Assembly: GCA_000004985.1 (NCBI GenBank)
Contig: GG738847.1
Length of the DNA: 64,000 bases
Direction: 5' to 3' (one strand)
Origin: Naegleria gruberi
Taxonomy: Eukaryota
Of this stretch, positions 5,015 to 62,883 are shown piece by piece. Each line of letters opens with the position of its first letter. The stretch's first letter is position 1. The notes beneath the pieces are model-generated. The model saw only the letters and a list, made by a program, of their open reading frames with translations. It did no database searches and had not been told where the DNA came from. The position numbers and the translations under genes were made by a program.

Positions 5015-5301
5015 TTTTTTGTAATTTACCTATTTTTATCATCTAATTTAAATAAAAAAATAAACAAAGTGTTTGTTAAAGGCTACTATTTCTTCTTGTT
5101 CAACAGTTTTGTTTTCTCGTGAAATGTACATTAATGTTAGAATTTATTGTTGTTGTTGGGTTGCTTTGGAAGAGAAATTCTTCATCATGAAAGGAAAGCG
5201 CCAAACTCGAAAAATATTAAAAAAAAATTGGAAACTAAAAAAACCGTTTCCTTGTTTTTTTGCCCATCACATCATCATCATTTGTTTTATTTATTGTTAT
5301 C

Positions 5302-7011
5302 ATGTCTGATTCATCATTATCTTTCTTTCAGAAGGAGACGATTCAAGTGATCGCTCAATCTGTGGGCATTACTAAATTAAAAGATGAAATTGCTCAAGCT
5401 TTGGCTCTTGATGTTGAATATAGAGTGAGAGAAATAATACAAGATGCTTCAAAGTGTATGAAACATGCTAAGAGAGGAGTTTTAACTACAGATGATATTA
5501 GTAATGCCTTGGCAATGAAGAATATCGAGGTAGGTAACTTTGTATATTATTTGATGATCATGAATGTTGTTTTAGCCACTTTACGGATTCAAAGGACAAT
5601 CATCACAACCAAATAGATTTAGGAGAGTTAAACAAACGAAAGATTTATACTTTTTGGAGGATGTAGAACTTGATTTGAAGGATTGTTTGGAAAAACCTCT
5701 TCCAAAGATACCAATAGGACCATCAATATTTACACACTGGTTGGCCATTCAAGGTATTCAACCAAAGATTCCTCAAAATCCTACTATTGAAGAAACAGAA
5801 TCGGAAAGAAAGAAGGAATCAAAAGATAAGGATCAATCCAAGAAAGTTTCATCATCACACGATCCTAATGTAGAATTTAAACCACTTGTCAAACATATAT
5901 TATCGGAAGAACTCCAAATGTACTTTGAAAAAGTTACAGAAGCTATCAAAGATACTACAAACCAAAAGAAAGAACTAAGAAAAGCTGTCATTGAAAGCTT
6001 GGCAACTGATTCTGGTATTAATCAACTCGTCCCTTATTTTACTCAATTTATTGCTAGTGAAGTCACAAATAATATGAGAAATTTGACTCTTCTTTATAGA
6101 TTGATGGAAATGACAAAAGCACTTCTTGTCAACCCAAATATTCATATTGAACTTTATGTATGTACTGCTTTGAATCATTTTAAATCTTATCATAGTATTA
6201 GCTTCATCAAATAATGCCTTCAATTCTGACTTGTATTGTTGGTAAAACTTTATGTGAAAATCCATATGAAAACCATTGGGGACTTCGAGACTTTTCAGCA
6301 AATACTATTGCCTATATTTGTCGCAAGTAAGTTTCTATTATATTTTTGAAACAGTATTCATCAAATATTTAAAGATTTGGCTCCTCATATCATACCCTCC
6401 AACCCAGAATTACTAAAACATTGCTTCATGCATTTTTAGATCCAAAAAGGTCAAGGGCAACTCATTATGGTGCTATTGTAGGAATTACAGCTCTAGGATC
6501 ACATGTAACACAACTCTTGCTCTTGGAACCTCCTAAGAATTCTAACCTTAAAATATTTTGCAATTTACTCCTTCCTGAACTTGTTTCCTCTGACATGAAC
6601 ACTAAACACCAGGCCTTTATGTGTTACAAAGCATTATTAACAGCCCCTGGAAACTTTTTCACTCAACTTGCTAGGTTTTTCAAACTTGAACAACAGGAAC
6701 GTGTGAGAGATCTTGGAGAAAATTCAAATGTTATTGAAGAGGATGATAATTATTACGAATCTCCTCAACTTGATTCATCAAAGAAGAGAGATTCCAACAA
6801 ATCAGAGGAGGTTCTAAAGATTGAACAATTGACCAGAGAAATGAGAGAAAGAATGAATTCATCCAATATTCCAGAAGATGTTTCTGAAAGATATTCAGAA
6901 TTCTTTGATTTGTTTGGTGAATCAGTATTTTCCTTCATTGACTATGATGTTTATAACAAGAAACCTGACAACTCTCCTGATGCATTCCTGCTTCGTGACT
7001 TGATTTTGTAA
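5302..7011 (+). CDS. TAF6: TFIID subunit TAF6 homolog, 4 exons: ~5302-5529, 5576-6157, 6202-6326, 6408-7011. Introns ~46, 44 and 81 nt.
   Basis: Exon 1 MSDSSLSFFQKETIQVIAQSVGITKL...TTDDISNALAMKNIE joins PLYGF... after a GTAGGT...TTTTAG intron. This matches the TAF6 histone-fold N-terminus (ESIKVIAESVGI...DVEYR...KRxxLTTxDIDxAL...NVEPLYGF). Downstream exons give LHQIMPSILTCIVGKTLCENPYENHWGLRDFSANTIAYICRK and ITKTLLHAFLDPKRSRATHYGAIVGI, the TAF6 middle domain. Junctions are GTATGT...TATTAG and GTAAGT...CCCAG. Confidence 0.75.
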
Positions 7012-7275: not shown

Positions 7276-8373
7276 ATGCAAACAAGAAACATACTCGTGT
7301 CCGGACTGGGTGGTGGTCTCGATATTCAAAATGCTCTTTTATTATTTAAACTTTTAAAGAATACACAAAAACACTCGAGTGAGCTTTCTGATGATTTTCA
7401 ATTTAATATTGCTAATGTATACCTTGGTTCAGTGAGACCTTGTCGCCAAGAAAATATCAATGATCCGATTGATACAACAATTTCACCATTTGTAACTGTG
7501 ATCGGAGCAAATAGTACAATTTCTATCAAGGGAAGATATTTTGAACCAACAATTGCAAAAGAATTAAATGAAAATGTAATCATGATGACAGGTTCAGTGG
7601 ACAAGACACCTACTGTTGACACTTTGGCAATTGACAATTTGAAAGAAGGATTGAAAGCACTTACAGAAAAGTATCAATTGACTGATTTGATATTTGTTGA
7701 TGGTGGTGGAGACTCTTTGATACTAGACAGTAATGACACAATTGATAAGGTAGGTCTATAATTGGAGTAATATTGATTCAATTTACAAAAAAAGATTCAT
7801 AACAATGTATTTATTGGTGGAGATGCTGTATGCTTAGCTGCTCTCCATAAATTGTCTTTGGAATTACCAAATATCAATATAATTCAAGGAATTATTGCTG
7901 TTGGATTGGATGTTAACAGGAAAGCATTCAAAAAGAATGTTAAAGAAATTGGAGAACGTGGAGGATATTACGGAAGAGTAAATTTTTCAACAGGAAAATC
8001 AGTTGACACAAGAAATCATACCAATGTTTTTGTAAACTCTCTCACACGTTACATATTTGAAAATCAAATTGTAAGAGAGGCAACTTTACAGGAATTCTTT
8101 GAAGTTGCAGAAAAATATCTTGTCCTCACACCAGAGCACTGTAAAATCAAAGACGATCCAAAAGCAACAGAGAAGAGATTTATGAGTCATACTGCAGTTG
8201 TGACCTATCATGCTTTGAAGAATAATTTTGGACTTCAAAGGACATTTGTTCCTTGGGAACCAAAATTGAAGGAAGGAAAGGGAGTAGTTGTAGATGTTGA
8301 CCATCAGTGGCTCTACCTACTCAATCCAGCCACTGCTGAGCAAATTAAAATTGACAAATTTAACACTGAATAA
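7276..8373 (+). CDS. Conserved hypothetical protein (~350 aa), 2 exons: 7276-7749 and 7795-8373, with a 45-nt GTAGGT...AAAAAG intron.
   Basis: ORFs 7276..7761 and 7852..8373 join in phase 0 (...SNDTIDK|IHNNVFIGGDAVC...). Gly-rich motifs LVSGLGGGLD and IFVDGGGDSL; no family recognised. Confidence 0.4.
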
Positions 8374-8419: not shown

Positions 8420-11400
8420 ATGAAAAGAAAACAAAAAGAAGCTCAAATCATTTCATCATCGGATGAAGCAGATGATGAAGTTGTTGTTGTGATTAATTCG
8501 AGTGATGAATCGGAAGAGGATGATAACGATTATGGTTATTCACTAGTAAAGGGTAGTGGCCAATATAAGTCTCTTTATGATTTTACTATTGTGTCAAATC
8601 CTGATTATTTGGAGAATGGAGATAAACCAAGGTTCTTTTCTATTGAAGGATTGACTTCGGTTGGAAAGGAATTATTTGCTTGTGGAATGTGCTTTAGTCA
8701 TGACAAGAAAACTGACAGCAAAGTTGGCTCACGTTCAGTATTTGGACCTATTAAAGAATGGGCAATAGAATATAGATTCTTGCCTGTTGTTAGTATTTTG
8801 GTTGAAACTTCGTCAAAGGATACCGAGTGGATTGAACTTATTTCTCCAACAAAAGAATATTTTCACATATTCAATTCTACATATCAGACGATTGCTGTGT
8901 GCCATGCTTTGATTAATCTTGTTCAGAGACATCCAAAAGAGTCGTACGAATCTATTATAGAAATGGTAGGTTTATTGGAATTATTCAGTCTTTAACATTT
9001 AAATAGCTCAAAAAAGCACAATTGGCTTTTATTTACCACCCAACCATAAGAAATACTAAACCCATTGTAAGCGAGGATTACATTCTTGAAAAATCAAAAT
9101 TTATTTCAGAACAATTCAATAGTTTACAAGAGACGAGGGTTTTAAACTCTTCATTCTTTTCACAACTAGTAAGTGTCTTCTTAAATTAATTCTAACGCAT
9201 TTATAGGAGGACATAATGATGAGAGGGGGAGTTCTTGCTGAACTTATTACTTCATCTGAGGAGGAAGAGGATGACACTCAATCAACAAGCTCAGAAGAAG
9301 AGTTTGTTCCAAAGGGTGCTCACTCTGATCCAAGTGATGAATCCATGTCAGAAGTTGTCTCAGAATCATCAGATTCTTCTGACTCTTTTTATAAACCAAA
9401 ATCTGTGAAAACTAAAAAGCAAACAAAATCTAAGAAAACCCTCTCTACTGTATCAACTAAAAAGGAAAATTTAATTAATGACGATTATTCGAGTGGCTCT
9501 GAGGAAGAAACTAAGACTAAGAAAACTAAAGCAAAATCCTTGAAGAAAACAACAGTCAAAAAAGAAAAGAAGGAGAAGGAAATTGTAAATAAGAATTTAG
9601 AACAAATTAAAGCCCATGACCTTGAAGATATCAAATGGGGAAAGCCAATCAGTAAGAAAATTGACGAATCAGGTCGAAAATATTTCAAGTCTTGTAAAAT
9701 TTCAAAAGAGGAATATAATATTGGCGATTTTATCTACTTGAAAACTCCATATCTCAATCATGAAATGCCATACTATATTTGTATGGTTGATTCATTCTTT
9801 GAAAATTGGAAAGGTCAGCGTCAGATGCGAGTGAGATGGCTTAGAAGATATCAAGATATTAAGATACTTACTACAGGAGAATATCATAATGTACTTTGTT
9901 ATGATCACCAGGAGTTGTACTTGACAGACGAATATGATGATGTGAGTATACTTACTTTAATTAATTACAAACATAATATTTTAGAACTTTATCAAGAACA
10001 TTAAGGGAAGATGTGCTGTATTTTTTGTAAGAAAGACTGAAGATTTTGAAAAAATTGAAGGATCACGAGATAAGAAGGATATTTTCTATTGTAAAAGCAA
10101 GATTGTAATTGTTGGAGAACAGATTTCTCTGTTAGAGTTAAGTCCACAAGAAATTGAACTCACATTCAAATGTATGGAAAATAACTTGAATGCCATTAAG
10201 GACCAATTCATTCCAAAAGAAAAAATTACAGCTCTTGACATATTTTCTGGTTGCGGTGGGTTGAGCCTAGGGTTGGAAAGAGCAGGTATCCATGTTAAAT
10301 ACAGCATCGAATTTTGGAAACCAGCAGCTGATACTCATCACTATTATTTCAAAGATTGCCACACCTTTTGTAAGAATGCCGAAGAGTTCCTCAAGCACAT
10401 TAAGGTGGCTAATGAATTGAAAAAAAGGTTTGGTCTTTTAGATAAAAAGTGTCAAATCAAAGGTTCACCTGGTAAGAGAAGAGTGATCCACATCAAAAAT
10501 GCCAAAAGAAAGAAGGATGGATCTCTTTGGTTAATGGTTGAGAAACAGGGTCAAGATTTGTGGATGGATGTTGAAAAAATGGATAGTTATAGAGCAGAAA
10601 TTGTACATTTTCTATCAACAAAATATGCAAACATACCAGCACCTGACGAAATTGATTTAATTGCTGGAGGACCTCCTTGTCAAGGATTCAGTTTACTGAA
10701 TAGATTCAAAGAAACAGATTCATCAAAGTTCTTATCACACGATAAGAATCGTTTAGTTTTAGTGTTTTTGGATTATGTGAAATACTTTAAGCCTAAATAT
10801 GTACTGATTGAAAATGTGACAGGTATTCTTAACACGACAGTATTTGATGTACCATCAGCAATCATTGAAAAGTTGGATGCAAGAGGTTATGAAGCCAAAT
10901 TCTCAACAGTTAACGCACAACACTTTGGAGTAAGTTTTTAATATATTTCAATAACGTAATTTATCGTTAAAGTTACCACAAACAAGAACAAGAGTAATTT
11001 TCTTTGGTGCAAGAAAGGATGAAAACCTTAAAGTTCCAGATTTCCCAAAGAATACTCATGCTTCCCATAAAGTTAGTGCTGTTCTTGACAATGCCAGTCA
11101 GGTAAAACTTGTAGCAAATGTAAGAAAGATTGTTGCAGGACCTCTTCCTCCTGTTTCACTCAGAGATGTTATTAGTGATCTGATTCCTTTTGAGGATTCA
11201 TCAGAATCAACTGCTGAATATCTACCTCCAAAGACAGTCTATCAAAAGCTCTATAGAAAGGATAGCGATACTTGCATTGATCACATTTCACAATCATATG
11301 GAGAGGTAACCTCAGCACTTATCAAATGTTTACCTAGATATCCTGGTTGTAATTTTAGAGATTTGGCAGAAAGTGCAAGACCACTTTTAAAAGAGGGTTA

Positions 11401-12193
11401 TTTGACCTATAGAGACTTTTCCAAGAATATTCTAGCTAGATTGCAGTGGAGTAAGAGTTGCCCAACACTTGTCACTCACTTGAACCCATATAGTATGAAG
11501 GTAATTCATCCCAATCAACATCGAGTTATTTCTGTAAGGGAGGCTGCTAGATGTCAGGGCTTCCCTGACGATTTTATATTTACTGGAAGCATTCACGATA
11601 AGTACAAACAAATTGGTAATGCTGTTCCTGTGAATATGGCCAAGGCGTTGGGAGGTGAAATTATTAAGGCCTATACAAATCATCTTTTAGACAAGAATGG
11701 AAATAGAAGAGAGGTTGAAGCAACAACAACGAAGAAATTGAGAGAAAATATGTACAAATGGTTTTCAGATCTGAAGTCATGGGCCAGTAAGGACTATGAA
11801 CCAAAACCTTTACTCAAGGAACTCATAGATATTCTAAAACCAATTGACAAATCTCTATGTGATGGATATCTAGTTCCACCGACAGACGAGGATATTCAAT
11901 TCTTGAAAAAAGAAATACCGAGACTGGTTCAGAAACATGCCAGTGATACAGAAGAGGTTATTACCCAAGAAGTCAAGGTCATTTATAATGATTCGTCAGA
12001 TGACGATGAAGCTGATGCAGAATGCTCAAATTCAGAAGAATCTGACAATCAAGACGAAGAAACTGAAATTCAAAAAGCTGCTTCTCAAAGAAAATCAAAG
12101 AAAGCTCCAGCCAAAAAGAAACCTGTTCTATCTGAAAGCTCTTCTGAAGAAGAAGAAGCTATCATTAGTATTTCTGATTCTGATTCTGATTAA
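8420..12193 (+). CDS. DNMT1-like maintenance-type C5 cytosine DNA methyltransferase (RFD - acidic/Ser-rich linker - BAH - MTase), ~1200 aa in 5 exons. Exons ~8420-8965, 9007-9168, 9207-9941, 9985-10929, 10973-12193; introns 41, 38, 43, 43 nt.
   Basis: Exon 1 has a replication-foci-domain-like region (…FGPIKEWAIEYRFLPVVSILVETSSKDTEWIELISPTKEYFHIFN…). Exon 3 has a BAH domain (YFKSCKISKEEYNIGDFIYLKTP…RVRWLRRYQDI…CYDHQELYLTDEYDD, continued by IKGRCAVFFV…DIFYCKSK). MTase motif I is DIFSGCGGLSLGLERAG, IV is GGPPCQGFS, VI is LIENV, VIII is AQHFG|LPQTRTRVIFFGA (across an intron), IX-X is RVISVREAARCQGFPDDF…GNAVPV. Junctions are GTAGGT, GTAAGT, GTGAGT and GTAAGT donors with YAG acceptors. Acidic SDSDSD C-terminus. 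Confidence 0.8.
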
Positions 12194-34900: not shown

Positions 34901-35748
34901 ACAAGGAAGGACAGCGGCATATTTATGATAACGGTCTCAATCCAATAATACGATTACTTAAACTGTCTTCCTCCATATCAGAGTACAAGTCAAAATTAGA
35001 GGCTGCCAAAACAGAAATGAATATTATATTTACTCCTTTTGCTATGAGTTTTGATGAATATGAGCTTTTACCTAAAGTAATTAGCAGAACATTGGCAAAT
35101 ATAAGCACACTTCCAGAAAGTCATTTTACTTTTTTCAAAGAAATATTTCTGGATTCATTGGCATCAATGATTTTATGCATGAATGGTGAGAGGACTGTAA
35201 TATGGAACTGTCTTTGTACACTCTCTAACCTTTGTGAAGCTGATACTATGCTCCAACGAAAGCTTATTTCAAAGAGTGCAATAAGAGACTGTTTGTTAAA
35301 ATATTTATTAGAGAATGATCACAAACTTCAAAGTAGATCCATTCGGTGTATATCAAAGCTGGCTAGAAATGAATCAATTTTGACTCAGATTCATGACACG
35401 TTCAAGATTTCAAATATTGTTCGGGCTATGGAAACCAATTCGATGGATGAATGTAAATTGGATGGTTTAAGGATTTTATTCCATTTTTCTCAATTTGAAC
35501 AGTTTCATCCATCTTTCCTCAAGTCTGGAGCAATTGAATTTATGGTCAAAATAACTCATTCATCAGTAGAAAGTATTGTTGTTGAAAGTTTGAAGAATTT
35601 ATTGAATCTAATATTTGCTAATGACAAGAGCATTAAGGATACTTTGATACAGGCAGGCACAGTAGATCGCCTTTGGGAATTAAAGAAATGTGAGAAAAGC
35701 TCTGAAAAGGTGAGAAGATTATGTCTAAGTGCATTGAAAGCAATGTAA
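31953..35748 (+). CDS. Lys/Ser-rich low-complexity N-terminal region plus a C-terminal ARM-like helical repeat domain (~1250 aa). The two ORFs (31953-32204 and 32221-35748) are in different frames with no phase-compatible GT-AG intron.
   Basis: ORF A ends at TAG 32202-32204. ORF B is open from ~32189 and has no ATG for ~55 codons. Both parts are S/K/P-rich. A GTAAGC donor sits at 32181 but no in-phase acceptor follows. Confidence 0.45.
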
Positions 35749-35894
35749 TATGTAATAAATTGAGTATTCACTTTCATTGGTAATCATTTTCCGAATCAAC
35801 TTGTACAATAAAAGTTGGCGCCTAAAATTATTCAAATAAAACAACATTAAAAAAAACCTTAGCTTACCGAGTATAGATTACTTATCATCATCAA

Positions 35895-38800
35895 ATGTTA
35901 TCGGGATTTAAAACCTCAATAATTCATATCAACATTGTAACATTGTGTTTGTGTAGTATTACTCTTCTCTTCATATCAACTATATCGGGTGTGAGTTGTT
36001 CGTTATCAGAAGAGTTTGTTCCTGCACTAAAAAACCACAATTCAACTTCAATCCTTTATCAAAGCAAGTATGGCCACCTATCGGATAGATGCTACAATCA
36101 GTTCATCAAGAATTTCATATTCAATCAGACGATTCTTTCCTTTGATAGAAGGACTATGATACTTGGATGTTTCTCAGGAACTTTTGCAGAAATGAAATCA
36201 TGCCACGATAGAATGGAAACACAATTCAGAAAGAGTACTTTCAAAGAGTGCTCATATTCAGATCAGTGCTTACTATTTGGTGACAATCCTTCATTGGTTT
36301 TCAAAATGTATTCAGAACGGGCAAGAAGAAGTGGAAAAGATGAATACGCCACCTTACTTGGAACATTTCCTTCAAAATGCTCGCAAACCATTGTTGAATC
36401 ACTAATTGGAAGAGAGGCAATTATATTCTTCTTTAAACAATCAAATGTGAGCGTTGAACTCACAAAAGAGCTTGTAAGGGGGTTCTTTAAGGAAAACCTC
36501 CAAAATCAATGCGGAAATTACACTGAAAATGCTTTAGAAGCATTAAGAATATTTGTACAGGAGATGCCAAAAGGAATGTTCAATTTTCTTTCCTTTTTAG
36601 AGTTTCAAGAAAGGGTCGAAAAGGATACAGTTTCCTTTCGGTTATTGTTTGATTTATCGATACTCATATCTCTTATCATTAGCACTCTTGTCGTAATAAG
36701 CAGAAAATCTAACAATACCAATCCTGTCTCAAACTCCCAGCCACAATCACAGAAAATGTTCCAACTTGTGAAAAATATATTCTTAAAACTGGACAATCAT
36801 AATCAGAACATTTTGCAAGCAGAATCTTTGATTAAAGCTAGAATAGAAAAAAGTGAAAAGCTTAAATTAGCCATCAATGATCAAGAGAATAGAATATCTG
36901 AATTGACCAATAACTTCAATAGGATGCTAAATGGCTCAAAAGCAAAAGATAATACAATCGCTAAAACAATGGAATTACTGAATGAAATCAAAGATGCAAT
37001 TCAATCCGAAAAAGGTAGAGAACCATTAGATGTATTTAATATGCCCTATTATTTGAAGCAATTGTTTAAAGAGAAATCCGAATCTGAAACTGCTTGTAAG
37101 GAGAAGAATGTTAAGGTTCTCGCAGAGAAAAAACAGCTTGAAGCGTTGAACAAGGAACTAAAGGATAGAATTGAGTTTATTGTTTCAGACAATGAGGATT
37201 TAGGATTAAAAGTAGGTCTACTTGAAGAATCATTGGGCAATCAGAAGTCAATTACTCATTCATTGGAAGACTCTGTGCTAAGCCAGTCTGAACAAATAAG
37301 CAAACTTCTTCACTCTTTGAAGATGAAAGAGGATCAGGAACAAAAAGTGGGAACAGAATTGGAAATTTCAAGAAATGACGTGAAGTTATTGGAGAAACAT
37401 CTGAATCAAACCTACTCTTATTTTGGGATTTTAGAAGAGAAGAATCCTGAATCAATACGTTCATTTGTTGAAAGTCTGAGAAATGAATCAGAAATTAAAA
37501 CAAGAGAAATTGAGAAACTCCAGGAACAAATAGCTAACATTGAAGAGATCTCAGACGAAAAAATTGCCAAGATACTAGAAATCGAGTCAAGAGTTACATC
37601 CTTGCAAGATGAAAATAACTCCCTGAGGTCTCAATTGCATATCGCAACAAAGAAGATCGAGTCAAAATATGAGAAAGCTTCCGATAATCATGAAATTCTT
37701 CTAAAAGATCTAGAAACTGTTAAAAGAGACCTCGAGAAAACGAAATTGGAGCTTGCTTAAAAATCAGATTTGCACAATTCTCTCCAGCTGGAAATTCAAC
37801 AAGCAAAAGAACAACAGAGCAGATATCAACAAAAAATTGCAGAAATAACTGAAATATCCGAAAATCATTTAAAAAAGATAGAATCAATTACGGATCAAAA
37901 TGATTTTATGGCAAAAACCATCGAATTGTTAAAAGAAGAATCCAAAGTGGAAGCAATTGGAAACAAGTGTGAACAATTGGAAAAAGACAATGCCCAAACA
38001 CTTATTGATCTGGCAAAAACAAGGTCAGAACTTTCTGCATTTAAACTAAAATATGAAGAGAGATGTAAAGTTTTAAGCAATGAAAGATCAATCATGGAAG
38101 AAAAGGTTAGAGATATTTCCCAAAAATATGAGAAACTGTGTGCAACAGTTTTAGAACGAAAGAAAGTTTTTGAGGAAGCAAAATCAATCATTGAGGAAAA
38201 ATCAAAGAGGGTGGAAGAGCTTTCTGTTATTGTTGAAACATTAAACGAGAGTATGGAGCAGAAGAATTGTGAACTTGTTTTGAAAGAAAAGAATATTGAG
38301 GAGCTAGTAGATATTGTAAACCAAATCAAGTCATGTTTCTCATCTGCACAGATTGAAGGTGACAATTCAATTACTTCTATTGTTAAAGAAATGATGGAAA
38401 AGCAACGAGAAACTGTAAATTGTTTGGAAGTGGAGGTAGAAGGGTTGAGAGGAACTCTGAGTAGTAAATCACAGATATTTGTTGATTATCAATACAAGAT
38501 TGATGAAATAACAGAAATATTAGAAGTTAGGTCAAAGAGAATAGATGAGTTAGATATTGAACTACAATTTCTTAAGAAGGAAAAAAGTAATTTAGAAAAT
38601 GAAATTATTGAGCTAAAGAAATTAATGGAAGAAAAGGAGGTAAAGTTGAAGGAACTAGCAGTTAGTTTGAAAAAGCTCGCTTTAGAAAAGCTTAGCAGTG
38701 AAACTTGTCTGAATGATGAAATAGAGAGTCTTTCTAATGAAAACCTATTGATGAAAGAGAAAATAGATAAGATGAATGAAGCCCTGTCAAAGAAAGTTAA

Positions 38801-39080
38801 CAAAATTGATGATGCCTATAACTATATTGAAGTTCTCAACTCTGAAAGTGAGAACCTGTGTTCTTTGAATAAGGCAATGGAAGATAAATATCTGAAAGTT
38901 CTATTTGAAAAGAAACAATTCAATGAACAAAAGGACAAGTATGAAAGAATTATCGAAGCATTAAAATCACAAAACGAAAAATTACTTGATGAATTGAACA
39001 ATCAACAAATGATCCTACTCAAAATGGAAAAATCAAATAAGAATGCATTCGAAAAGGAATCCAAAAACCAAACAAAATAA
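35895..39080 (+). CDS. Membrane-anchored long coiled-coil protein (signal/TM - Cys-containing lumenal domain - TM - ~800 aa coiled coil). The reading frame is interrupted by an in-frame TAA at 37758-37760.
   Basis: ORFs 35895..37760 and 37770..39080 are in the same frame and separated only by TAA plus 3 sense codons (…TKLELA*KSDLHNSLQLEIQQAKEQ…). Heptad-rich K/E/L composition runs throughout both parts. No convincing intron spans the stop; the only GT upstream is a weak GTTAAA. Confidence 0.5.
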
Positions 39081-39180: not shown

Positions 39181-41260
39181 TTAATAATAATCATGATAAT
39201 CTCTAATTTGACCATTCCAAAAAGAGCACAAATCTCTAAAATCCTCTTGAGTGGCAAACATCTGAGCTCCCCTAAATCCCTCGTTCGAATCAGTAGAATG
39301 AACAATAGTTACATTCGGTAAAATTTTAGAAACTTCTTCAGCCCATCCATTTTCTGATCCTACCAATATTACATTTTTTACCTGTTCAATAACATCCATC
39401 CTCTTGGCCCTCAATACTTCTTTTAATCCTTTTTTGAACTCCTTTTCTATTGTCCTGTTTGAATCCACTTCATAAATGTCTCCAGCAAATGAGAAGAAAT
39501 TCAAAACCACACTGATGGTAATTGTGTTTACATCCTTCTCTATTACTATACAATGACTAATACTGTGATAGTATGCTATCATAGTATGTCTTGAAAGTAA
39601 ACAAACTGCAGGAACTTGCGTTTTCAATACCAAATCAATAAAATTGCTCAATTTTTTCATTTTCAGATATTTTGGAGGGATTGAGATTAATAATGGATGG
39701 CTTGGTGTGAAATTAATTTCTTCACAAACTTTGGAGAAAAATGTTCCAATGTTCATGGCTGTTACACGATAATCTTCTGCAGTTAAATAATCAAATACAT
39801 TTCTCTGGTCAGAACCCCTTCTACCAAGCATGGCATCTGAATAGCTGTAAAAGTTAAAGCTATTAAGGTATTGAGATATTGAGAAATTTCAACTCGTATA
39901 ATACTTACTGGCCTCCTGTATATCTACCCACATAGGGCTCAGTCGTTTTTGGAGTTTCATCACTGAAAAATCCAAAAGTTGCAACCTCACTGGTTATATC
40001 AATACAGATAGGTTTAAAATTGCGTTCAGTGAAATTTCTAACTCTAGCAGCATGATACCAATCTGTGAGTGGTTCTTTTTCACATAATTTAAGATAGGTA
40101 TTTCCATTCCAATATTTCTTGTACACTGCTTTCCATAAAATGGGCGATCTTGCAAGATGATTCAAATATCTACTCAATTGCAAACCAACAGAACATATTT
40201 CACTCTCTGAAAGAAAAGTGAATATGTTTAAAATAATCTCCTCTGGTAGAACTGTCAGATTATCATTCTTGTCGTTTTCAACTGGACCTTCCAATATACA
40301 GTATTGCCTATTTAACAAATATTCAAAGGTTTTACCACTCTTCACAAGCAGCCTCTGCCCAGCAAAATACTTTTCTGAAGATCCATAAACATCCCCACTC
40401 TTTTCAAGAGTTTCACTTTCCTTAAAAGCTTGCCCAATTTGTTGGTAAGTTTCTGATTGTTCAAAATTGTTATCTCTTGGAATTGAATTATTATCCACTC
40501 TGAGATACATAATTTCAGTTCTTAAAATATACTTGATTCCACTAATTACAGAACATCCTTCATGATAAAAATCTTGATTAAATAGAGCCAATTTACCAAC
40601 TGAAGGTTTCAAAGTATGATGAAGGTTGAAAGTATCGTCGTTTGGATCAGAGAAGAATTTGGTTTCTCCACCATTGAAATCCTGATTCAAATAGATCAGT
40701 AATGTGTAAATACTTCTCTCATTTTCACTTCTTCTAAACTGACCGTCGGTATGAATTTTGAAATATTCTCCCTTTTCATACTTGCTAAATCTCATACATT
40801 CATTAACTCCACAAGCTACCCATCTTCCTCTGCTGTCCAACCCATACGGGGCAATTGATTTTCCAATCTGATCTAGATCAATCTTGTTCTTTAGTCTATT
40901 AAATATCAAATCGGCCAACTTGTTATCTGTAACCAGTTCTCTCATGGCATTTCTGTGTTCCTTTGGATATTCATCTTCAAGAGATTGAAAATTGGAACAC
41001 TTTTTAATCAAATCTCTGCATTCATCATCGGAAAAGAAATTCGGAATGACCATCAATCTATTCAATGAATCTTCATAGAAAGGACCGGAAATCTCTAAAG
41101 GCTTCAATTCAAATGACTGTCTATCGTAGGAAAACATTTGCCTGACTTTAATAGAATCATCCGGTTCAATCACTGAATATTTAGATTTAATTCGTTGTTG
41201 TTGGAGATGGTCATTGTTATCATTTCTGGAAGAACTTGAAGCACTGTGTTTATTACCCAT
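39181..41260 (-). CDS. Multidomain protein of ~673 aa: N-terminal MGNKHS (myristoylation consensus) - 2OG-Fe(II) prolyl-4-hydroxylase-like domain - F-box - uncharacterised C-terminal domain. 2 exons: 39909-41260 and 39181-39844, with a 64-nt GTAAGT…TTTTACAG intron.
   Basis: P4H-type motifs are HTDGQF…RSIYTLLIYLNQDFNGGETKFF…FYHEG (HxD…H facial triad). The F-box is LPEEIILNIFTFLSESEICSVGLQLSRYLNHLARSPILWK. The junction …GRYTGG(H)|YSDAMLGRRG… is in phase, with the split codon CA|C. Confidence 0.6.
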
Positions 41261-41660
41261 TCTTCCCTTTCTTTACAATGATGGTGGCAACAGTGTTATT
41301 TTTTTTGAATGGAAATATTGTAAAAATTGTAAAGTGAACTTGGAGTTCATGATGAAAGCTTTGATTTGGTGTGCCTTGTGATGTGGATAGTTAATGTGCG
41401 CTGTTATGCAATTATAATAACTGTTGGTAATAATAATTTGTAATTGTTTTTTAATAGTTCACAATATGAAGTTTCTCTTCAATATAATGATCTGTAAAGC
41501 AATTAGTGAAAGTGGAGTTTAAAGAATTAAAGGAATTAGCGGAAAGGTGGAATACTGATTCTAAAAAAAAGGAAGCCAAAAGATTATCACCAAAGTGTCA
41601 ATATCCAAAAAGAAAACCAAACAGAATCTCCATTAATAATTAATTATTAAAATTCTAATA

Positions 41661-49615: not shown

Positions 49616-52600
49616 CTAAAGGAGTAAGAAATTACAAATCATCACAACCATGACGAATACTGATGCAACAATCTTACCAGAACCATTAACATCAGTACTA
49701 TGTATTGGAACAGTACCATTGTTATTATTGTTATTGTTATTATTATTGTTATTGTTTGTAGGAGAACCTGAGCTAGTAGCAACAATCACTTGTTTTGATT
49801 CGTCCACAACAACCAAATCTGTTGTAGCAGCAACAGATGAAGTTGAGAACAATGAAGCAGTTGGTGTGAAAGTAAATGAAGTCTTAACCACTGCTGCACT
49901 ATCTTTCTTCACCAAATTAATTTGGAGCAATTGATCAATGGTTGAAACAGTACATGCACTAACAGTGTACAATGTCGTCAAATCAGTTGACCCACTCTTA
50001 ATCATATCAAAGATCTTACTTGGATTTGCATTAATATCAGCAATTCCCTTCACATCAAATGGATGGTCAGGATTACTATTGTAAACCATAAATTCGGTAT
50101 TTCCAGCTGTTGCTTGATTAATCCAAACCATGTCGACAGTTGTTGGTTTCAAATCTTCCAAAGTCAATTTCAAAGCACATTTTGAAAGTAAATTGAATTG
50201 AACTAAGGTACCAGTTGTCTTGGAGAAGGCAATTGGCAATCTCTTAACTGTTGAAGTATAGGAATAACTTGAAGTGGCAATTGAGTTGACATCAGTAATT
50301 GATGGAGTTGCCTTTACAGTATTGGAATTGACAGACATGTCATAGACACATGTGGCATCGGTACTTTCAGCAATGAGAACAAGACCAATTTTGTTGGCAG
50401 TTTTGGCATTGTTCAAGTCAGCTGCCAAATCCAAATAAAAGTTTCCATTGATGGCTGGATCCATTGTAATGGAAGTTGCGTCAATTTCTCTTCTTGCAAT
50501 GGTCAAAGTTCTAGGAAATACTTGCTTCCAAAAAGATGGAAACTGAACTTGTCTTCTTGTTGGTGACCTTAATTTGAATAAACCTTTCGGCTGTTCCAGT
50601 ACAAACATTCGAAATGTCAATACTAAACAGTGCAACCTCACCTACCTTTTCAGCAACCAAATTATTGATTGATTTGGTATCTCTACTCATTTCTTTAGAA
50701 TCAACAACAATATTAGAATCATAACTCATTACAACACCTGTTGCACTATTCACAATTCTCAAATATAAAGTCTTGGCATTGATATCTGTCATCCTGACAG
50801 CTGAACACTTCATACCATAATAGCTAAAATCAGAATTTGGACCAATAACCTTAGTTTCAGATGGAACACCACTATTAAGAATATCATTGTAAACAAATTG
50901 AAGATTAATTTGATTGGTTGACATCATTGACACATCACCCTTATTCAAATATTCATCAGCAATTGGAAAAATTGTTTCACCAACTCCATAATTAACCATG
51001 AATGAACTACCATCATTGAGAATATTGGTATAGAAATCATTTGCAAATTTGAGTTTACCAGCACCTTCCAAAGAAGTCATTGACAAATATGGATAAGTAT
51101 ATCTATTCAAATTAATGATTAATCTTCCAGAACGGAATGGATTTACAATCTTGGAATTGAAATCCATGATATTGTAAGGAGCCATACCAATTTGCTTAAT
51201 TGTGAAACTTTCATCAAGTGGAATGACAGTTGCCAATAAAATCTTATCAGTATTTCCAATATTCATATTTTCCAAAGTCAAGTGGAAAGTATATTCAGTT
51301 TCCTTATCAATATAATTGAACTTGGCACCATTTGACATCTTGTACATGTTTCCAGATGTCCATGCTTCTGACAAGGTCAAACTAAATTTACCCCAAGCTT
51401 GCATTGAGAAGGCATAACGTGGATAATTAGCAGCAGTATCCAAAATCTTCATAAAGATAATTGGGTTTCCAACCTTTTAGTAAGTATATGAGAACCAACC
51501 ACCATAAGTTGTTGTGCTTAATTCAAAATCAGTTGTCACTATTTTTTGATCTGTGAGAATTGACATGAAAACAACATCACTTTCACGTGGGGCATCATAT
51601 CTGAGAATAAAATCGACTTCACCTTCAATGATATTTTCCTTAGTTGGATCAGGAGTTGAAGTAAAGATGAAAATTGGAGTTTGAGCTGTTTTGTAAACAA
51701 CCTTAATAAAAGTGCCATCCTCCATGACTGTTCCATCATTGACAGTTTGAGTGACATCATAATCACCTTGAGTAATAAGAACGTCATTTTGAGCAGTATT
51801 GGTATTCAACATATTCTTATAAACTTCAAATTTAAAATATTTCTTTGTAGTTCCTCCATTTGGAATACTAATTGTGGCCAAAGTGACTCCTTGGACAGAT
51901 TTAGAAACAGTGAAAGGTAATAGCATCTCCTTTGGCAGCTACATAACCATACTTGACATAGTAAAAGTTATTATTGGCATTCTTAATATTAAATTCATAG
52001 AATGCTGGAGTTGACTTGAACTCTGGTTGAACAACGACTGGAACTGGAACAGGATCTGAGGCTGGATCTGCTTTACCAACATAGTTATTGGCTCCTGGAA
52101 CTAAGTTACCATTACTATCTGTAGTAGATTCAGCATACTTTGGTTTTGGTGGACTCATGGTCTTGAATTTACCACTCATTGAGGCAATTTCAGTTTTACC
52201 AACTAATTCTAATTCCTTACTACCACCAAATTTCTCAGATTCATAATAGAAAATTAAATTGTAATAGGCGCTCAATTTACAATAAGCTGAAACTGAATCA
52301 CCTTCAATCAATCCTTCGCCAATCAATTCAATTCTGAAACGAGGAGCAATACCAACATAAACAGAGGCCAATTCCTTAACACCCAAAATCTTAACATTGA
52401 CTTCAACACCTGGAATCAATCCAAAGTAAACATTGGTCACAGCATTTACTTCAATCTTTGGTGGATCAGATGAGAAAGTAATTCCATCTCCTTCCTTTAC
52501 AGTACTATAAGTTCCATCATTGTACTCATAACCCAATGTCTTTTGGATGAGTAATTCAAAGTTTCTACGATAGGAAATTGTACCAGTGGCTTCGATTTTA

Positions 52601-53849
52601 CCTTTGAATTTAAGACTTGGAAGTACGGAGACAGTTAATACTGGAACAGCACTAATCATGATTGGAATGGTAACAGCTGGAGCTTTGAGTAAGAGTTTTT
52701 CAATATCCTTTTCGTATTTTGCTGTGACTGCCAGTCTGACATAACCAGATGTCTTCCAACTACCACCAACTGTTGCACGCAAGGTCTTTAAAGTGATCAA
52801 TTTGATATTGACCTTCAATGAGAATTCCATAAAGATTCTAGAGATACAATCTTCACAGGCAACTTCAAGAGATTCAGCCTTATAAATTGGAATGTTATTA
52901 TTAATTGGTGTTCCAGAACTATCACAATTAATATTTAACATTGGAGTGGTGTAACTTGCGGATCCTTCATAAGTTGGATCTGGAAGAGCAGCCTTGACAG
53001 TTTGATAGGCATTGTTGACAGCACCACCAACAGCAGCACCTGCCTTCTTGACTGAATTCCAAGCATCACTCAATCCCCAGAGAACTTTTCTAGAGATTGG
53101 TGTAACTCCTCTTGAGTTAACTCCAATTTCTGCCTCCATGAACAATTCAGCAGGAGACATGGAACGAGTTTGGAAACGAACTCTCATCATATTTCCTTCA
53201 TGAGCTATGATTTCACGCGTGAGGACAACATTGGTTGTGGCAGGATTCTCAGCACGATCTTCTTGACCTCTGAAACAATTCCACTTTTCACTAATGATGA
53301 ATCTTGTACCAGGAATGAAACGAGAGGCAGTACGCGCGTGATCTGAAAAGTCAATGGTGATGGAGTCATCAGTTGGATCACACTTGACGTCCCATACATT
53401 GAGTTCTCTATCAAGATTAACAATACCAGAGAGAGCTGTACCTTCAACTGAATAAATCTTCATGGTGTTACCTTCTACTCGACCAACATTATGTCTAATT
53501 GGAGCATAGTCGACATTTCTCTTCAATTTATTGATACTTCTCTTGTTGGTTCTCAATTCAATTTCAGAAGCACCCAAAGTATAGGTATTTCTCAAGTGGA
53601 ATGGATCTCTTCTCAAAGCTTGAAACAATTCCTCACCGGAAATGAAAGGACTGATGGTAGCGGAAGTTGTGGAAAGTCGATACCTTCAAAATTCATCTCA
53701 AGGAAGGATGAGGAGTGAAGGGATCTTTTGGCTTGTCCCTTCAATCCAAACATTCTCTTGGAGGGAAAGACAGTCATCTTGGATGTTGGTGTGTTTGCCA
53801 TGGCTAACACACTCATCACCACCAACAAGACGAAACTTGTGAATAGCAC
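49616..53849 (-). CDS. Giant secreted, GPI-anchored surface (adhesin-like) protein of ~1400 aa, assembled from 5 ORF segments. The gene is disrupted: two unresolved frame changes and one in-frame TAA.
   Basis: Segments on the minus strand are a signal-peptide ORF 53613-53849 (…FVLLVVMSVLAMANTP…), 51901-53628 (575 aa), 51477-51926 (149 aa), 50511-51452 (313 aa) and 49616-50641 (341 aa). The last ends in N13 (PTNNNNNNNNNNNNNGT) and a hydrophobic GPI-type tail IVASVFVMVVMICNFLLL. A clean 55-nt GTAGGT…GGAACAG intron (50591-50645) joins the 313- and 341-aa parts in phase (…NLVAEK|PKGLFKLRSP…). The 149- and 313-aa parts are in the same frame, separated only by TAA 51477-51479. The signal->575 and 575->149 transitions change frame with no usable intron. 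A further upstream ATG micro-exon (~53940) is possible. Confidence 0.5.
49728..49757. repeat. (AAC/AAT)n microsatellite (minus-strand sense) encoding the poly-Asn13 stalk.
   Basis: gttattattgttattgttattattattgtt on the plus strand. Confidence 0.6.
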
Positions 53850-56604: not shown

Positions 56605-57460
56605 CTATGAATTAGCAAATAAATCAATTAGATTGTGGAATGGCTTTACAATTTTAAATGAAGAGAATACACCAAGAAGAACTCCCATCACAACAATAAC
56701 AATAGATGATGCCAGAGCTGCAATGATAGCAATAATCATGGTTCCTAGATAGTTCCATTGAGGAACTGAAAATACAAATAACCTGTCAAGAAGCAGTGTC
56801 ATTGGGAAAATAAGGAATCATCATACTTACCAATTTACATTAGCAGAATTACATAACCTGTACATTAAAAAATCTGTCCCCGAAAGATAAAAACTTGAAT
56901 GAATCGCAGCTAAGTGAGTCCAACTTGCTTTGATACCTCGTATATATAAAGTTACCAACAGTTTCTACTTCTAAAACACCAAAATTTGTTGCCTTCTTAC
57001 GCTCTTGATTTCCCTTATCATCCCACTTGGCTACAGGAACTTCAGGATAACTAGAGGCCACGATAAACTCAGTTTCAATTTCAATGACAAAGGCAAGTGA
57101 ACCAGTTATTTAACTTGTGATTTCCTTCAGATAGCTACTAATTGTAGCCACAGAAATATCAAAACCAAAATACCAATCAAAGTTGAATCCTGTGGCCGTT
57201 TGATTTCTAGATGGTCTTGAATTGACCAAACTCATAAAGGTAATGGAAGGAAGTGTTGGGTCAGTGTAGGAGAGCGTAAAAGTTGGTTTGTTCACTTGGT
57301 CCGATGCCACTCCTAGAATGTAACTCATATCAAATGGTGGTAACTGTACATCTGGTTCCCTAGATTGTGTATGACAATATTCATACAATGTCATATTATC
57401 ACAATAGGTCCAAAACTGACCTGTTGAATTCACAAACAATATGCTTGGAATTCTCACCAT
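56605..57460 (-). CDS. Predicted single-pass membrane protein assembled from 3 ORF segments (57110-57460, 56849-57061, 56605-56802). It is interrupted by an in-frame TAA at 57110-57112 and has an unresolved 3' junction.
   Basis: The 116-aa and 70-aa ORFs are in the same frame with 16 open codons between (…KEITS*ITGSLAFVIEIETEFIVASSYPEV…). The last segment encodes a TM helix GTMIIAIIAALASSIVIVVMGVLLGVF plus a short tail. GTGAGA and GTAAGT candidate donors are nearby, but no phase-consistent splice model is found. Confidence 0.35.
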
Positions 57461-62809: not shown

Positions 62810-62883
62810 TACAGCGAGCGGGGCTTGAACCCGCGACCTTAAGCGTGTTAGGCTTACGATCTAACCAACTGATCTATCGCTGC
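62810..62883 (-). tRNA. tRNA-Val (anticodon AAC), 74 nt, no intron, CCA not encoded.
   Basis: Reverse complement GCAGCGATAGATCAGTTGGTTAGATCGTAAGCCTAACACGCTTAAGGTCGCGGGTTCAAGCCCCGCTCGCTGTA folds as a canonical cloverleaf. The 7-bp acceptor stem has G1·U72. D-stem is GATC/GATC, anticodon stem TAAGC/GCTTA, loop CUAACAC (U33, AAC, A37), T-stem GCGGG/CCCGC, T-loop TTCAAGC, discriminator A. Confidence 0.9.

What the first reader, a model, noticed from the sequence alone, without database searches (positions are those of the whole stretch)
37758..37760. In-frame TAA inside a ~1050-aa membrane-anchored coiled-coil protein
ORFs 35895-37760 and 37770-39080 are in the same frame and have identical heptad-rich composition on both sides. 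They are separated only by TAA plus KSD. No canonical intron spans the stop. Possibilities are a real nonsense allele or pseudogene, a base-call error, two adjacent genes, or translational readthrough.
Basis: seen in the sequence. Interest (0 to 1): 0.5.

Follow-up and report, generated by a model that had tools for sequence, protein, structure and literature searches.

The report
One Naegleria gene split by TAA
A single premature TAA stop codon cuts one membrane-anchored coiled-coil gene of the amoeba Naegleria gruberi into two pieces that the public annotation lists as two separate genes; it is most likely an ordinary young nonsense allele or a base error, not recoding.

Summary
A TAA sits at 37758-37760. 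A 621-codon ORF lies upstream and a 439-codon ORF follows at once in the same frame. The window is Naegleria gruberi NEG-M. The public annotation ends one gene (NAEGRDRAFT_62295) at this TAA and starts the next (NAEGRDRAFT_45700) at the first downstream ATG, 37908.

Four results indicate one gene:
- The 49 codons between the TAA and that ATG score as coding in frame.
- The heptad register runs unbroken across the stop.
- The only detectable orthologue, N. lovaniensis C9374_008040 (801 aa), is one uninterrupted ORF. It aligns through the stop position and carries the conserved C-terminal motif of ORF2.
- The ORF2 ATG has a poor start context.

Alternatives tested and not supported:
- No canonical intron spans the stop. 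The available donors are GTTAAA and GTCAAA, against GTRAGT/GTAGGT in the window's real introns.
- No downstream RNA structure is present.
- TAA is the normal terminator of nearly all genes in the window, so it is not a sense codon.

The best reading is a recent single-base nonsense change, one step from CAA, GAA or AAA. It may be a real allele of this heterozygous lab strain or a consensus error. Reads are needed to separate these. Interest is low.

The parts
35895..37757 (+). ORF1, 621 codons: N-terminal half of the gene (signal-like segment, ~220-aa Cys-containing luminal/extracellular domain, one TM, ~350 aa of coiled coil). The public model NAEGRDRAFT_62295 (P0001) covers only aa 100-621.
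   Evidence: Homology to N. lovaniensis starts at aa 75, upstream of the annotated M100.
35895..35999 (+). Signal-peptide-like N-terminus (aa 1-35; hydrophobic core aa 9-27)
   Evidence: Kyte-Doolittle peak of 2.38. Inferred from the sequence only.
36642..36698 (+). Transmembrane segment (aa 250-268, LLFDLSILISLIISTLVVI)
   Evidence: Kyte-Doolittle peak of 2.63. The equivalent TM is present in P0004.
37758..37760 (+). In-frame premature TAA (codon 622). It falls at heptad position 'c' and is one substitution away from CAA (Q), GAA (E), AAA (K), TTA, TCA and TAT/TAC.
37761..37907 (+). 49 stop-free codons between the TAA and the first in-frame ATG. The stretch is coding-like in frame 0 and is treated as intergenic by the public annotation.
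   Evidence: Codon log-odds are +0.165 in frame 0 against -0.54 and -0.40 in the other frames. Only 4% of non-coding windows score this high, and the value is the 12th percentile of coding windows. The heptad register is continuous.
37908..39080 (+). Remainder of ORF2, identical to the public model NAEGRDRAFT_45700 (P0002, 390 aa): the C-terminal coiled-coil half of the gene.
   Evidence: The start context has T at -3, and an out-of-frame aaaATG lies 8 nt upstream.
38940..39041 (+). Conserved C-terminal motif (YERIIEALKSQNEKLLDELNNQQMILLKMEKSNK). It is shared with N. lovaniensis P0004 aa 655-688 and with the environmental fragment P0003.
   Evidence: BLASTP E = 1e-4. The ungapped score is 78 against 45.2 +/- 5.1 in heptad-aware shuffles, with 0 of 300 shuffles reaching it. 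Alignment A3 shows 59% identity to P0003.
37719..37787 (+). Rejected candidate intron (69 nt, GTTAAA...TCTCTCCAG, in frame)
   Evidence: The donor lacks the purine at +3 and the G at +5 found in all six intron donors read in the window. GC is 0.38, against 0.19 in the three introns whose composition was measured. Removing it would delete 23 residues and break the heptad register.

Best explanation
ORF1 (35895-37757) and ORF2 (37761-39077) are the two halves of one Naegleria gruberi gene. The gene encodes a lineage-restricted protein with a signal-like N-terminus, a ~220-aa luminal/extracellular domain, one TM helix and ~790 aa of cytosolic coiled coil ending in a conserved motif. In this assembly, codon 622 has become TAA through a single-base change from a typical exposed coiled-coil codon (CAA, GAA or AAA).

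The most likely case is a genuine, evolutionarily very young nonsense allele. It may be carried by only one haplotype of the heterozygous, long-cultured NEG-M strain. Translation would stop at aa 621 and give a membrane-anchored stump without the conserved C-terminus. ORF2 would not be expressed as an independent gene. The public two-gene annotation (NAEGRDRAFT_62295 + NAEGRDRAFT_45700) is then an artefact of the stop.

Shown: one gene ancestrally; no intron; no recoding signal. Inferred: that the stop is real rather than a consensus error, and that the truncated product, not ORF2, is what the cell makes.
For: Organism and annotation:
- P0001 and P0002 are 100% identical to the window. They end at the TAA and start at ATG 37908, respectively, and carry consecutive accessions.

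One gene:
- The post-stop 49 codons are stop-free (P = 0.022) and coding-like in the same frame.
- Heptad register 3 runs from about aa 573 to 664, straight across the stop.
- An exhaustive HMMER search of 1.84 billion proteins finds a single non-gruberi full-length relative, N. lovaniensis C9374_008040. It is one intronless 801-codon ORF.
- phmmer aligns N. gruberi aa 75-664 to N. lovaniensis aa 5-602, through the stop, and aa 891-1050 to aa 570-724.
- The C-terminal motif match is significant against heptad-aware shuffles.

Young event:
- ORF2 has no second disabling mutation, although 6.6% of its possible substitutions create stops. If ORF2 is unconstrained, this bounds neutral divergence since the stop at about 1-3.5% or less.

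Plausibility of a heterozygous allele:
- Naegleria is described as mainly a heterozygous diploid (PMC9928731).

Against independent ORF2 expression:
- The ATG has T at -3 and an upstream out-of-frame aaaATG, whereas most ATG starts checked in the window, including all the best-supported ones, have A at -3.
Against: - No read-level or second-strain data could be reached, so a consensus error is not excluded.
- The complete intactness of ORF2 fits equally well with an error or with continued selection on ORF2.
- Only one orthologue was available. It is divergent (28% identity), and its alignment right at the stop is of moderate confidence.
- A gapped whole-length comparison of ORF2 with the N. 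lovaniensis C-terminal half is not significant over coiled-coil background. Homology of that half rests on one 34-aa motif.
- The neighbouring genes are not syntenic between the two species.
Confidence: 0.52

Rival explanations
1. Base-call or consensus error in the reference assembly. The real NEG-M gene would have a sense codon (CAA/GAA/AAA-like) at 37758-37760 and encode an intact 1061-aa protein.
For: Everything that shows a single gene applies here too. ORF2 is perfectly intact with no second lesion. The public protein models come from the same assembly, so they give no independent confirmation of the base.
Against: From my own knowledge, not tested here: the reference is a JGI Sanger assembly at roughly 8x, where substitution errors are rare, and only about 6-7% of substitutions in this gene create a stop. 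Two further in-frame TAAs with coding-like sequence on both sides lie in the same 64 kb, which seems too many for a random consensus error rate. This gene is a large mutational target for real nonsense changes.
Confidence: 0.2
2. Genuine gene fission. After the stop arose, both halves are expressed as separate functional proteins, as the public annotation implies, with ORF2 translated from ATG 37908.
For: The JGI annotation calls two genes. The 147-nt spacing from the TAA to the ATG equals typical same-strand intergenic distances in the window (for example 35748 to 35895). ORF2 remains intact.
Against: The 'intergenic' 147 nt is coding-like, stop-free and in heptad register. An old fission would have let it decay. 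The ATG context is poor, with an out-of-frame upstream ATG in good context. ORF2 would be a soluble coiled coil cut off from its membrane anchor. The orthologue is unsplit.
Confidence: 0.1
3. Programmed or tolerated UAA readthrough. Ribosomes sometimes decode the TAA as sense, giving a short 621-aa isoform and a long 1061-aa isoform.
For: The downstream frame is open and coding-like immediately after the stop. ORF2 is intact. Other in-frame TAAs with coding-like flanks lie at 51477-51479 and 57110-57112 on the minus strand, and the first of these has the same TAA-AA context.
Against: From general knowledge, UAA followed by A is among the tightest termination contexts. No known leaky motif (UGA-CUAG, UAG-CAA-UUA) is present. 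The downstream 120 nt has no stable structure (z = +0.51). The stop is not conserved: the orthologue has a sense codon and a continuous ORF. TAA terminates most of the roughly 30 ORFs tabulated in the window (the rest end in TAG, one in TGA), and conserved genes such as RPC1, aconitase and dynein contain no in-frame TAA. A literature search found no report of readthrough in Naegleria.
Confidence: 0.05
4. A non-canonical 69-nt in-frame intron (37719-37787, GTTAAA...CCAG) removes the stop from the mRNA.
For: The interval is a multiple of three. It has a pyrimidine-rich acceptor (TTCTCTCCAG), and its length is within the range of introns seen in the window, about 43-135 nt.
Against: The donor lacks the purine at +3 and the G at +5 that are present in all six intron donors read in the window. 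GC is 0.38, against 0.19 for the three introns measured. The interval scores as coding. Removing 23 residues would break the heptad register. The intronless N. lovaniensis ORF aligns through it without a gap.
Confidence: 0.04

Closest known systems
Unitary pseudogene or nonsense allele that automatic annotation splits into two adjacent gene models
   Same: A single ORF in the orthologue. One disabling point mutation. Two consecutive 'predicted protein' models that end and begin around the stop.
   Different: There are no further disabling mutations and the coding signature is fully kept, so the event is very young or not real. Expression and allele state are unknown.
Programmed stop-codon readthrough genes (for example TMV replicase, Drosophila headcase and kelch, mammalian AQP4 and MDH1)
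   Same: An in-frame stop followed by a long open, coding-like extension.
   Different: There is no leaky stop context, no downstream structure, the stop is UAA, and it is not conserved in the orthologue.
Membrane-anchored long coiled-coil proteins (golgins such as giantin, kinectin, CLIMP-63)
   Same: The overall architecture: one TM helix plus several hundred residues of cytosolic coiled coil.
   Different: No sequence or profile similarity was found in Pfam or the PDB. Here the anchor is N-terminal, with a signal-like peptide and a luminal domain. Relatives were detected only within Naegleria. This is an analogy from memory, not membership.

Membership tests
Single gene disrupted by a nonsense mutation (young pseudogene or null allele) | The orthologue is one continuous ORF collinear with both halves | tested here: met
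   N. lovaniensis C9374_008040 is an 801-codon intronless ORF. phmmer domain 1 runs through the stop position. The C-terminal motif match has 0 of 300 shuffles reaching it.
Single gene disrupted by a nonsense mutation (young pseudogene or null allele) | Sequence directly after the stop is coding in the same frame | tested here: met
   Codon log-odds of +0.165, against negative values in the other frames and in intergenic controls. The heptad register is continuous.
Single gene disrupted by a nonsense mutation (young pseudogene or null allele) | The stop is really present in the organism's DNA (read support, allele frequency) | not testable with these tools
   No reads or second N. gruberi assembly could be reached. 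Exact-protein look-ups and metagenome scans found nothing.
Single gene disrupted by a nonsense mutation (young pseudogene or null allele) | Relaxed constraint downstream (further stops or frameshifts) | tested here: not met
   ORF2 has no second lesion. This bounds the age at about 1-3.5% neutral divergence or less, or points to an error or to retained function.
Programmed stop-codon readthrough | Leaky stop codon and 3' context | tested here: not met
   The context is GCT TAA AAA TCA. It matches none of the known leaky motifs, which are recalled from the literature.
Programmed stop-codon readthrough | Stimulatory RNA structure downstream | tested here: not met
   MFE is -8.2 kcal/mol and z = +0.51 against shuffles.
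Programmed stop-codon readthrough | Stop codon conserved in orthologues, with a conserved extension | tested here: not met
   The orthologue has no stop at or near the aligned position.
Stop-codon reassignment (TAA as a sense codon) | TAA is frequent inside conserved genes and rare as a terminator | tested here: not met
   TAA ends 32 of 45 long ORFs. RPC1, aconitase and the dynein heavy chain have no internal TAA.
Spliceosomal intron containing the stop | GTRAGT-type donor, AT-rich body, acceptor AG | tested here: not met
   Only GTTAAA and GTCAAA donors are available, and GC is 0.35-0.38. Real introns have GTAAGT/GTGAGT/GTAGGT donors, and the three measured have GC 0.19.
Two independent adjacent genes (fission) | A non-coding spacer and a competent start codon for the downstream gene | tested here: not met
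   The spacer is coding-like. The ATG has T at -3 and an upstream out-of-frame ATG. Transcript starts were not testable.

The most novel reading that the evidence does not exclude
Naegleria gruberi tolerates or uses low-level UAA readthrough at a subset of genes. This gene would then make a short membrane-anchored isoform and a long isoform carrying the conserved C-terminal motif. The other in-frame TAAs in the same 64 kb (51477-51479 and perhaps 57110-57112, minus strand) would be further examples.
Probability: 0.05. Interest if true: 0.6.

Novelty: new member of a known kind. Interest (0 to 1): 0.15.

Why it matters
The main value is for annotation. NAEGRDRAFT_62295 and NAEGRDRAFT_45700 should be merged, or flagged as one disrupted gene, and the model should be extended 5' to the ATG at 35895. 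This would stop two artificial orphan 'predicted proteins' from spreading through databases.

The case also illustrates that K/E/Q-rich coiled-coil genes in AT-rich genomes are large targets for nonsense mutation: 6.6% of substitutions in ORF2 give a stop.

It would become biologically interesting only if reads confirm the stop and the downstream half is still translated.

Tried and rejected
- The search for homologous proteins with the full 1061-aa read-through gave no hit. The 8000 candidates were flooded by coiled-coil words, and even the identical public protein was missed.
- The same tool with a two-sequence N-terminal alignment also gave nothing, so the N. fowleri orthologue could not be retrieved.
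- Exact-protein look-ups for ORF1, RPC1, P0001, P0002 and P0003 found no contigs.
- A metagenome DNA pattern spanning the stop with NNN, and a profile-based locus search with the C-terminal motif, both found nothing.
- The AlphaFold2 model of the luminal domain (aa 1-290) had pLDDT 45.6, so no fold search was attempted.
- Pfam gave only a sub-threshold Dark_CARD match on ORF1 and nothing on ORF2; the PDB sequence search gave only two chance-level EscV matches (E about 0.1).
- Supplement searches of two N. gruberi expression papers for the JGI gene ids found nothing usable.
- A gapped Smith-Waterman comparison of ORF2 with the N. lovaniensis C-terminal half was not significant against heptad-aware shuffles.
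- A profile of the C-terminal region hit several coil segments about equally.
- Only the ungapped 34-residue window test was clean.
- Synteny was checked and is absent.
- Rfam and tRNA scans of the window found only one tRNA-Val and no suppressor tRNA.

Full report
**The observation.** The sequence reads '...gag ctt gct TAA aaa tca gat ttg cac...', with the TAA at 37758-37760. The ORF finder lists 35895-37760 (621 aa, ATG start) and 37770-39080 (436 aa, TTG start) on the plus strand in the same frame. A stop-to-stop scan shows the downstream frame is open from 37761, giving 439 codons. The 'KSD' gap is therefore only an artefact of requiring a start codon. Read through, the product is 1061 residues.

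Hydropathy gives a signal-like hydrophobic core at aa 9-27 and one TM at aa 250-268. The rest is E/K/L-rich, both before and after the stop and in the 49 codons between the stop and the first in-frame ATG at 37908. At the window's base composition, a 439-codon open frame has probability about 1.6e-15 and the first 49 codons alone about 0.022.

**Where the window comes from.** Neighbouring ORFs encode:
- the RNA polymerase III largest subunit, aconitase, and a prolyl-hydroxylase/F-box protein;
- a dynein heavy chain, TAF6, and a BAH plus C5-methyltransferase protein;
- an RGS protein and others.

This is a compact eukaryotic genome of 33% GC with short introns. A search with the N-terminal 305 aa returned one protein at 100% identity, 'predicted protein [Naegleria gruberi]' (P0001).

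P0001 is NAEGRDRAFT_62295 (EFC49523.1). It starts at the internal Met100 of ORF1 and ends at ...KTKLELA, that is, at this same TAA. The exhaustive HMMER search also returned P0002, which is NAEGRDRAFT_45700 (EFC49524.1, the next accession). It has 390 aa, is 100% identical, and starts at ATG 37908. So the public annotation of strain NEG-M already treats the two halves as two adjacent genes. The TAA is present in the reference assembly from which these models derive. This is not independent confirmation of the base.

**One gene or two?** Four independent lines indicate one gene.

1. Coding signature of the spacer. The 147 nt that the annotation treats as intergenic score as coding in frame 0: +0.165 bits per codon, against -0.54 and -0.40 in the other frames. 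All intergenic controls are negative. Only 4% of 370 non-coding windows reach this value, and it is the 12th percentile of 179 left-out coding windows.
2. Heptad register. The best heptad register (register 3) is constant from about aa 573 to 664 when the stop is counted as one residue. That places the stop at a solvent-exposed 'c' position.
3. Start context. The ORF2 ATG has T at -3 and is preceded 8 nt upstream by an out-of-frame ATG in the preferred aaaATG context. Most of the ATG starts checked in the window, including all the best-supported ones, have A at -3.
4. Orthology. Scoring the read-through protein against 1.84 billion representative proteins gave only four hits:
   - the two N. 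gruberi halves;
   - a 130-aa environmental fragment, P0003, 61% identical to aa 924-1049;
   - one full-length relative, Naegleria lovaniensis C9374_008040 (P0004, 801 aa).

The N. lovaniensis gene is a single intronless ORF (L001 8001-10406). Local phmmer aligns N. gruberi aa 75-664 to N. lovaniensis aa 5-602, running straight through position 622. It aligns aa 891-1050 to aa 570-724. After the TM, N. lovaniensis has about 630 residues. ORF1 has about 350 and the read-through about 790. The orthologue therefore does not end at the equivalent position.

**How strong is the homology of the ORF2 half?** A gapped whole-length alignment of ORF2 against the N. lovaniensis C-terminal half is not significant over coiled-coil background: 11 of 300 heptad-position shuffles and 42 of 300 block shuffles reach the observed score. 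A small profile of the C-terminus hits several coil segments about equally.

A 34-residue motif is specific:
- N. gruberi YERIIEALKSQNEKLLDELNNQQMILLKMEKSNK
- N. lovaniensis YQQQFDELTSRNEKLLNDLNSHEMYIMALEKDAK

BLASTP gives E = 1e-4 with composition adjustment. The best ungapped 34-residue window over all ORF2 x P0004 positions scores 78. Heptad-position shuffles give 45.2 +/- 5.1 (maximum 71), and 0 of 300 reach the observed score. The same motif is kept in P0003. The order of domains is therefore collinear: luminal domain, TM, coil, C-terminal motif. Relative to N. lovaniensis, N. gruberi carries about 225 extra residues (aa 665-890), and N. lovaniensis has about 110 extra residues at its C-terminus. 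Flanking genes are not syntenic. Since each species shows only one copy in the exhaustive search, orthology is the simplest reading.

**Intron?** Six intron donors can be read in the window, from frame switches or stops inside ORFs (three lie in the TAF6- and methyltransferase-domain genes); the sixth is only a plausible call:

| Location | Donor |
|---|---|
| 9942-9984 | GTGAGT |
| 10930-10972 | GTAAGT |
| about 6327-6374 | GTAAGT |
| prolyl-hydroxylase gene | GTAAGT |
| about 50645 (minus strand) | GTAGGT |
| about 51953 (minus strand) | GTATGG |

All six have a purine at +3 and G at +5. The three whose composition was measured (9942-9984, 10930-10972 and about 6327-6374) have GC 0.19.

Five in-frame GT..AG intervals span the TAA. 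All use GTTAAA (37719) or GTCAAA (37661) as donor. The best of them (37719-37787, 69 nt) has GC 0.38. Splicing it out would remove 23 residues and break the heptad register. The intron reading is rejected, with about 4% residual probability.

**Recoding?**
- TAA is the dominant terminator in the window: 32 of 45 long ORFs, including most of the likely genes tabulated. The conserved genes have no internal TAA, so reassignment is excluded.
- The context TAA-AAA matches none of the leaky contexts I know from the literature. It resembles ordinary terminators in the window.
- The 120 nt downstream has no structure beyond shuffles (z = +0.51).
- No suppressor tRNA or other RNA element lies in the window.
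- The stop is not conserved in the orthologue.
- A literature search found no report of readthrough in Naegleria.

Readthrough cannot be formally excluded without ribosome or peptide data, but nothing points to it.

**What the stop most likely is.** TAA is one substitution from CAA, GAA and AAA, the commonest exposed coiled-coil codons. In ORF2, 260 of 3951 possible substitutions (6.6%) create a stop, so this gene class is a large nonsense target.

ORF2 carries no second lesion. If it has been unconstrained since the stop arose, the neutral divergence accumulated is at most about 1-3.5% (95% bound, depending on the indel rate). The event is therefore very recent, or it is not real.

[quoted passage not shown] A nonsense allele on one haplotype of an old laboratory strain is plausible. 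My probabilities:

| Reading | Probability |
|---|---|
| Genuine young nonsense allele | about 0.5 |
| Consensus error | about 0.2 |
| Real fission into two expressed genes | about 0.1 |
| Readthrough | about 0.05 |
| Non-canonical intron | about 0.04 |

That the two ORFs were ancestrally one gene I hold at about 0.85-0.9.

**What the protein is.** Pfam gives only a sub-threshold Dark_CARD match on ORF1 and nothing on ORF2; the PDB sequence search gives only two chance-level EscV matches (E about 0.1). A single-sequence AlphaFold2 model of the luminal domain is unusable (pLDDT 45.6). The family was detected only within Naegleria.

The architecture is signal-like peptide, Cys-containing luminal domain with NxS/T sites, one TM, a long cytosolic coiled coil and a conserved C-terminal motif. 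By analogy only, this recalls membrane tethers such as golgins, kinectin and CLIMP-63. No membership is claimed.

**Verdict.** The finding is real and correctly described, and it is ordinary. One lineage-specific gene is interrupted by one premature TAA, and the public annotation has mis-split it into two 'predicted proteins'. The practical outcome is an annotation correction. The open question, real allele versus base error, needs reads.

Noticed in passing
window 51477-51479 (minus strand), within the multi-exon orphan gene at about 49616-53685 (-): A second in-frame TAA ('...GGWFSYTY*KVGNPIIFMK...', context tac TAA aag). Both sides are strongly coding-like (0.44 and 0.45), and no GTRAGT-type donor spans it. 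It has the same TAA-AA context as the main finding.
   Followed up: partly
window 57110-57112 (minus strand): A third in-frame TAA with coding-like sequence on both sides ('YLKEITS*ITGSLAFVIEIE', DNA ACAAGTTAAATAACT). It lies in a region of small exons (56.6-57.5 kb) whose gene structure I did not resolve, so it may lie in an intron.
   Followed up: no
window 39181-41272 (minus strand): The apparent stop of the 2OG-oxygenase/F-box ORF (39905-39907) sits inside a GTAAGTA splice donor. A ~64-nt intron follows, and the gene probably continues into the ORF at 39181-39888.
   Followed up: partly
L001 7896-8000 (N. lovaniensis PYSW02000031.1): Homology to the N. gruberi protein continues 35 codons upstream of the annotated ATG of C9374_008040 and then hits a stop. 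The divergent neighbouring gene starts at 7809, which leaves no room for an exon encoding the signal peptide. The N. lovaniensis copy therefore looks 5'-truncated or mis-modelled.
   Followed up: partly
window 35895-36191: The public model NAEGRDRAFT_62295 starts at Met100. The ORF extends to an ATG at 35895, which adds a signal-peptide-like segment. Homology to N. lovaniensis begins at aa 75, so the model is probably 5'-short.
   Followed up: partly
window 5239-7011 and 9207-12193 (plus strand): The TAF6 gene and a DNMT1-like gene (BAH plus C5 cytosine methyltransferase) are each split by very short introns (about 43-48 nt), with GTAAGT or GTGAGT donors and GC 0.19. They served as the splice-site reference here.
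   Followed up: yes
window 62810-62883 (minus strand): A single tRNA-Val (AAC). It is the only RNA gene detected in the window.
   Followed up: yes
tool behaviour: The word-indexed protein search returned no hits for the full-length coiled-coil query or for a two-sequence alignment, although an identical protein (P0001) is in the database. Low-complexity coiled-coil words appear to saturate the candidate list. A null result from that tool on such proteins is not evidence of absence.
   Followed up: partly
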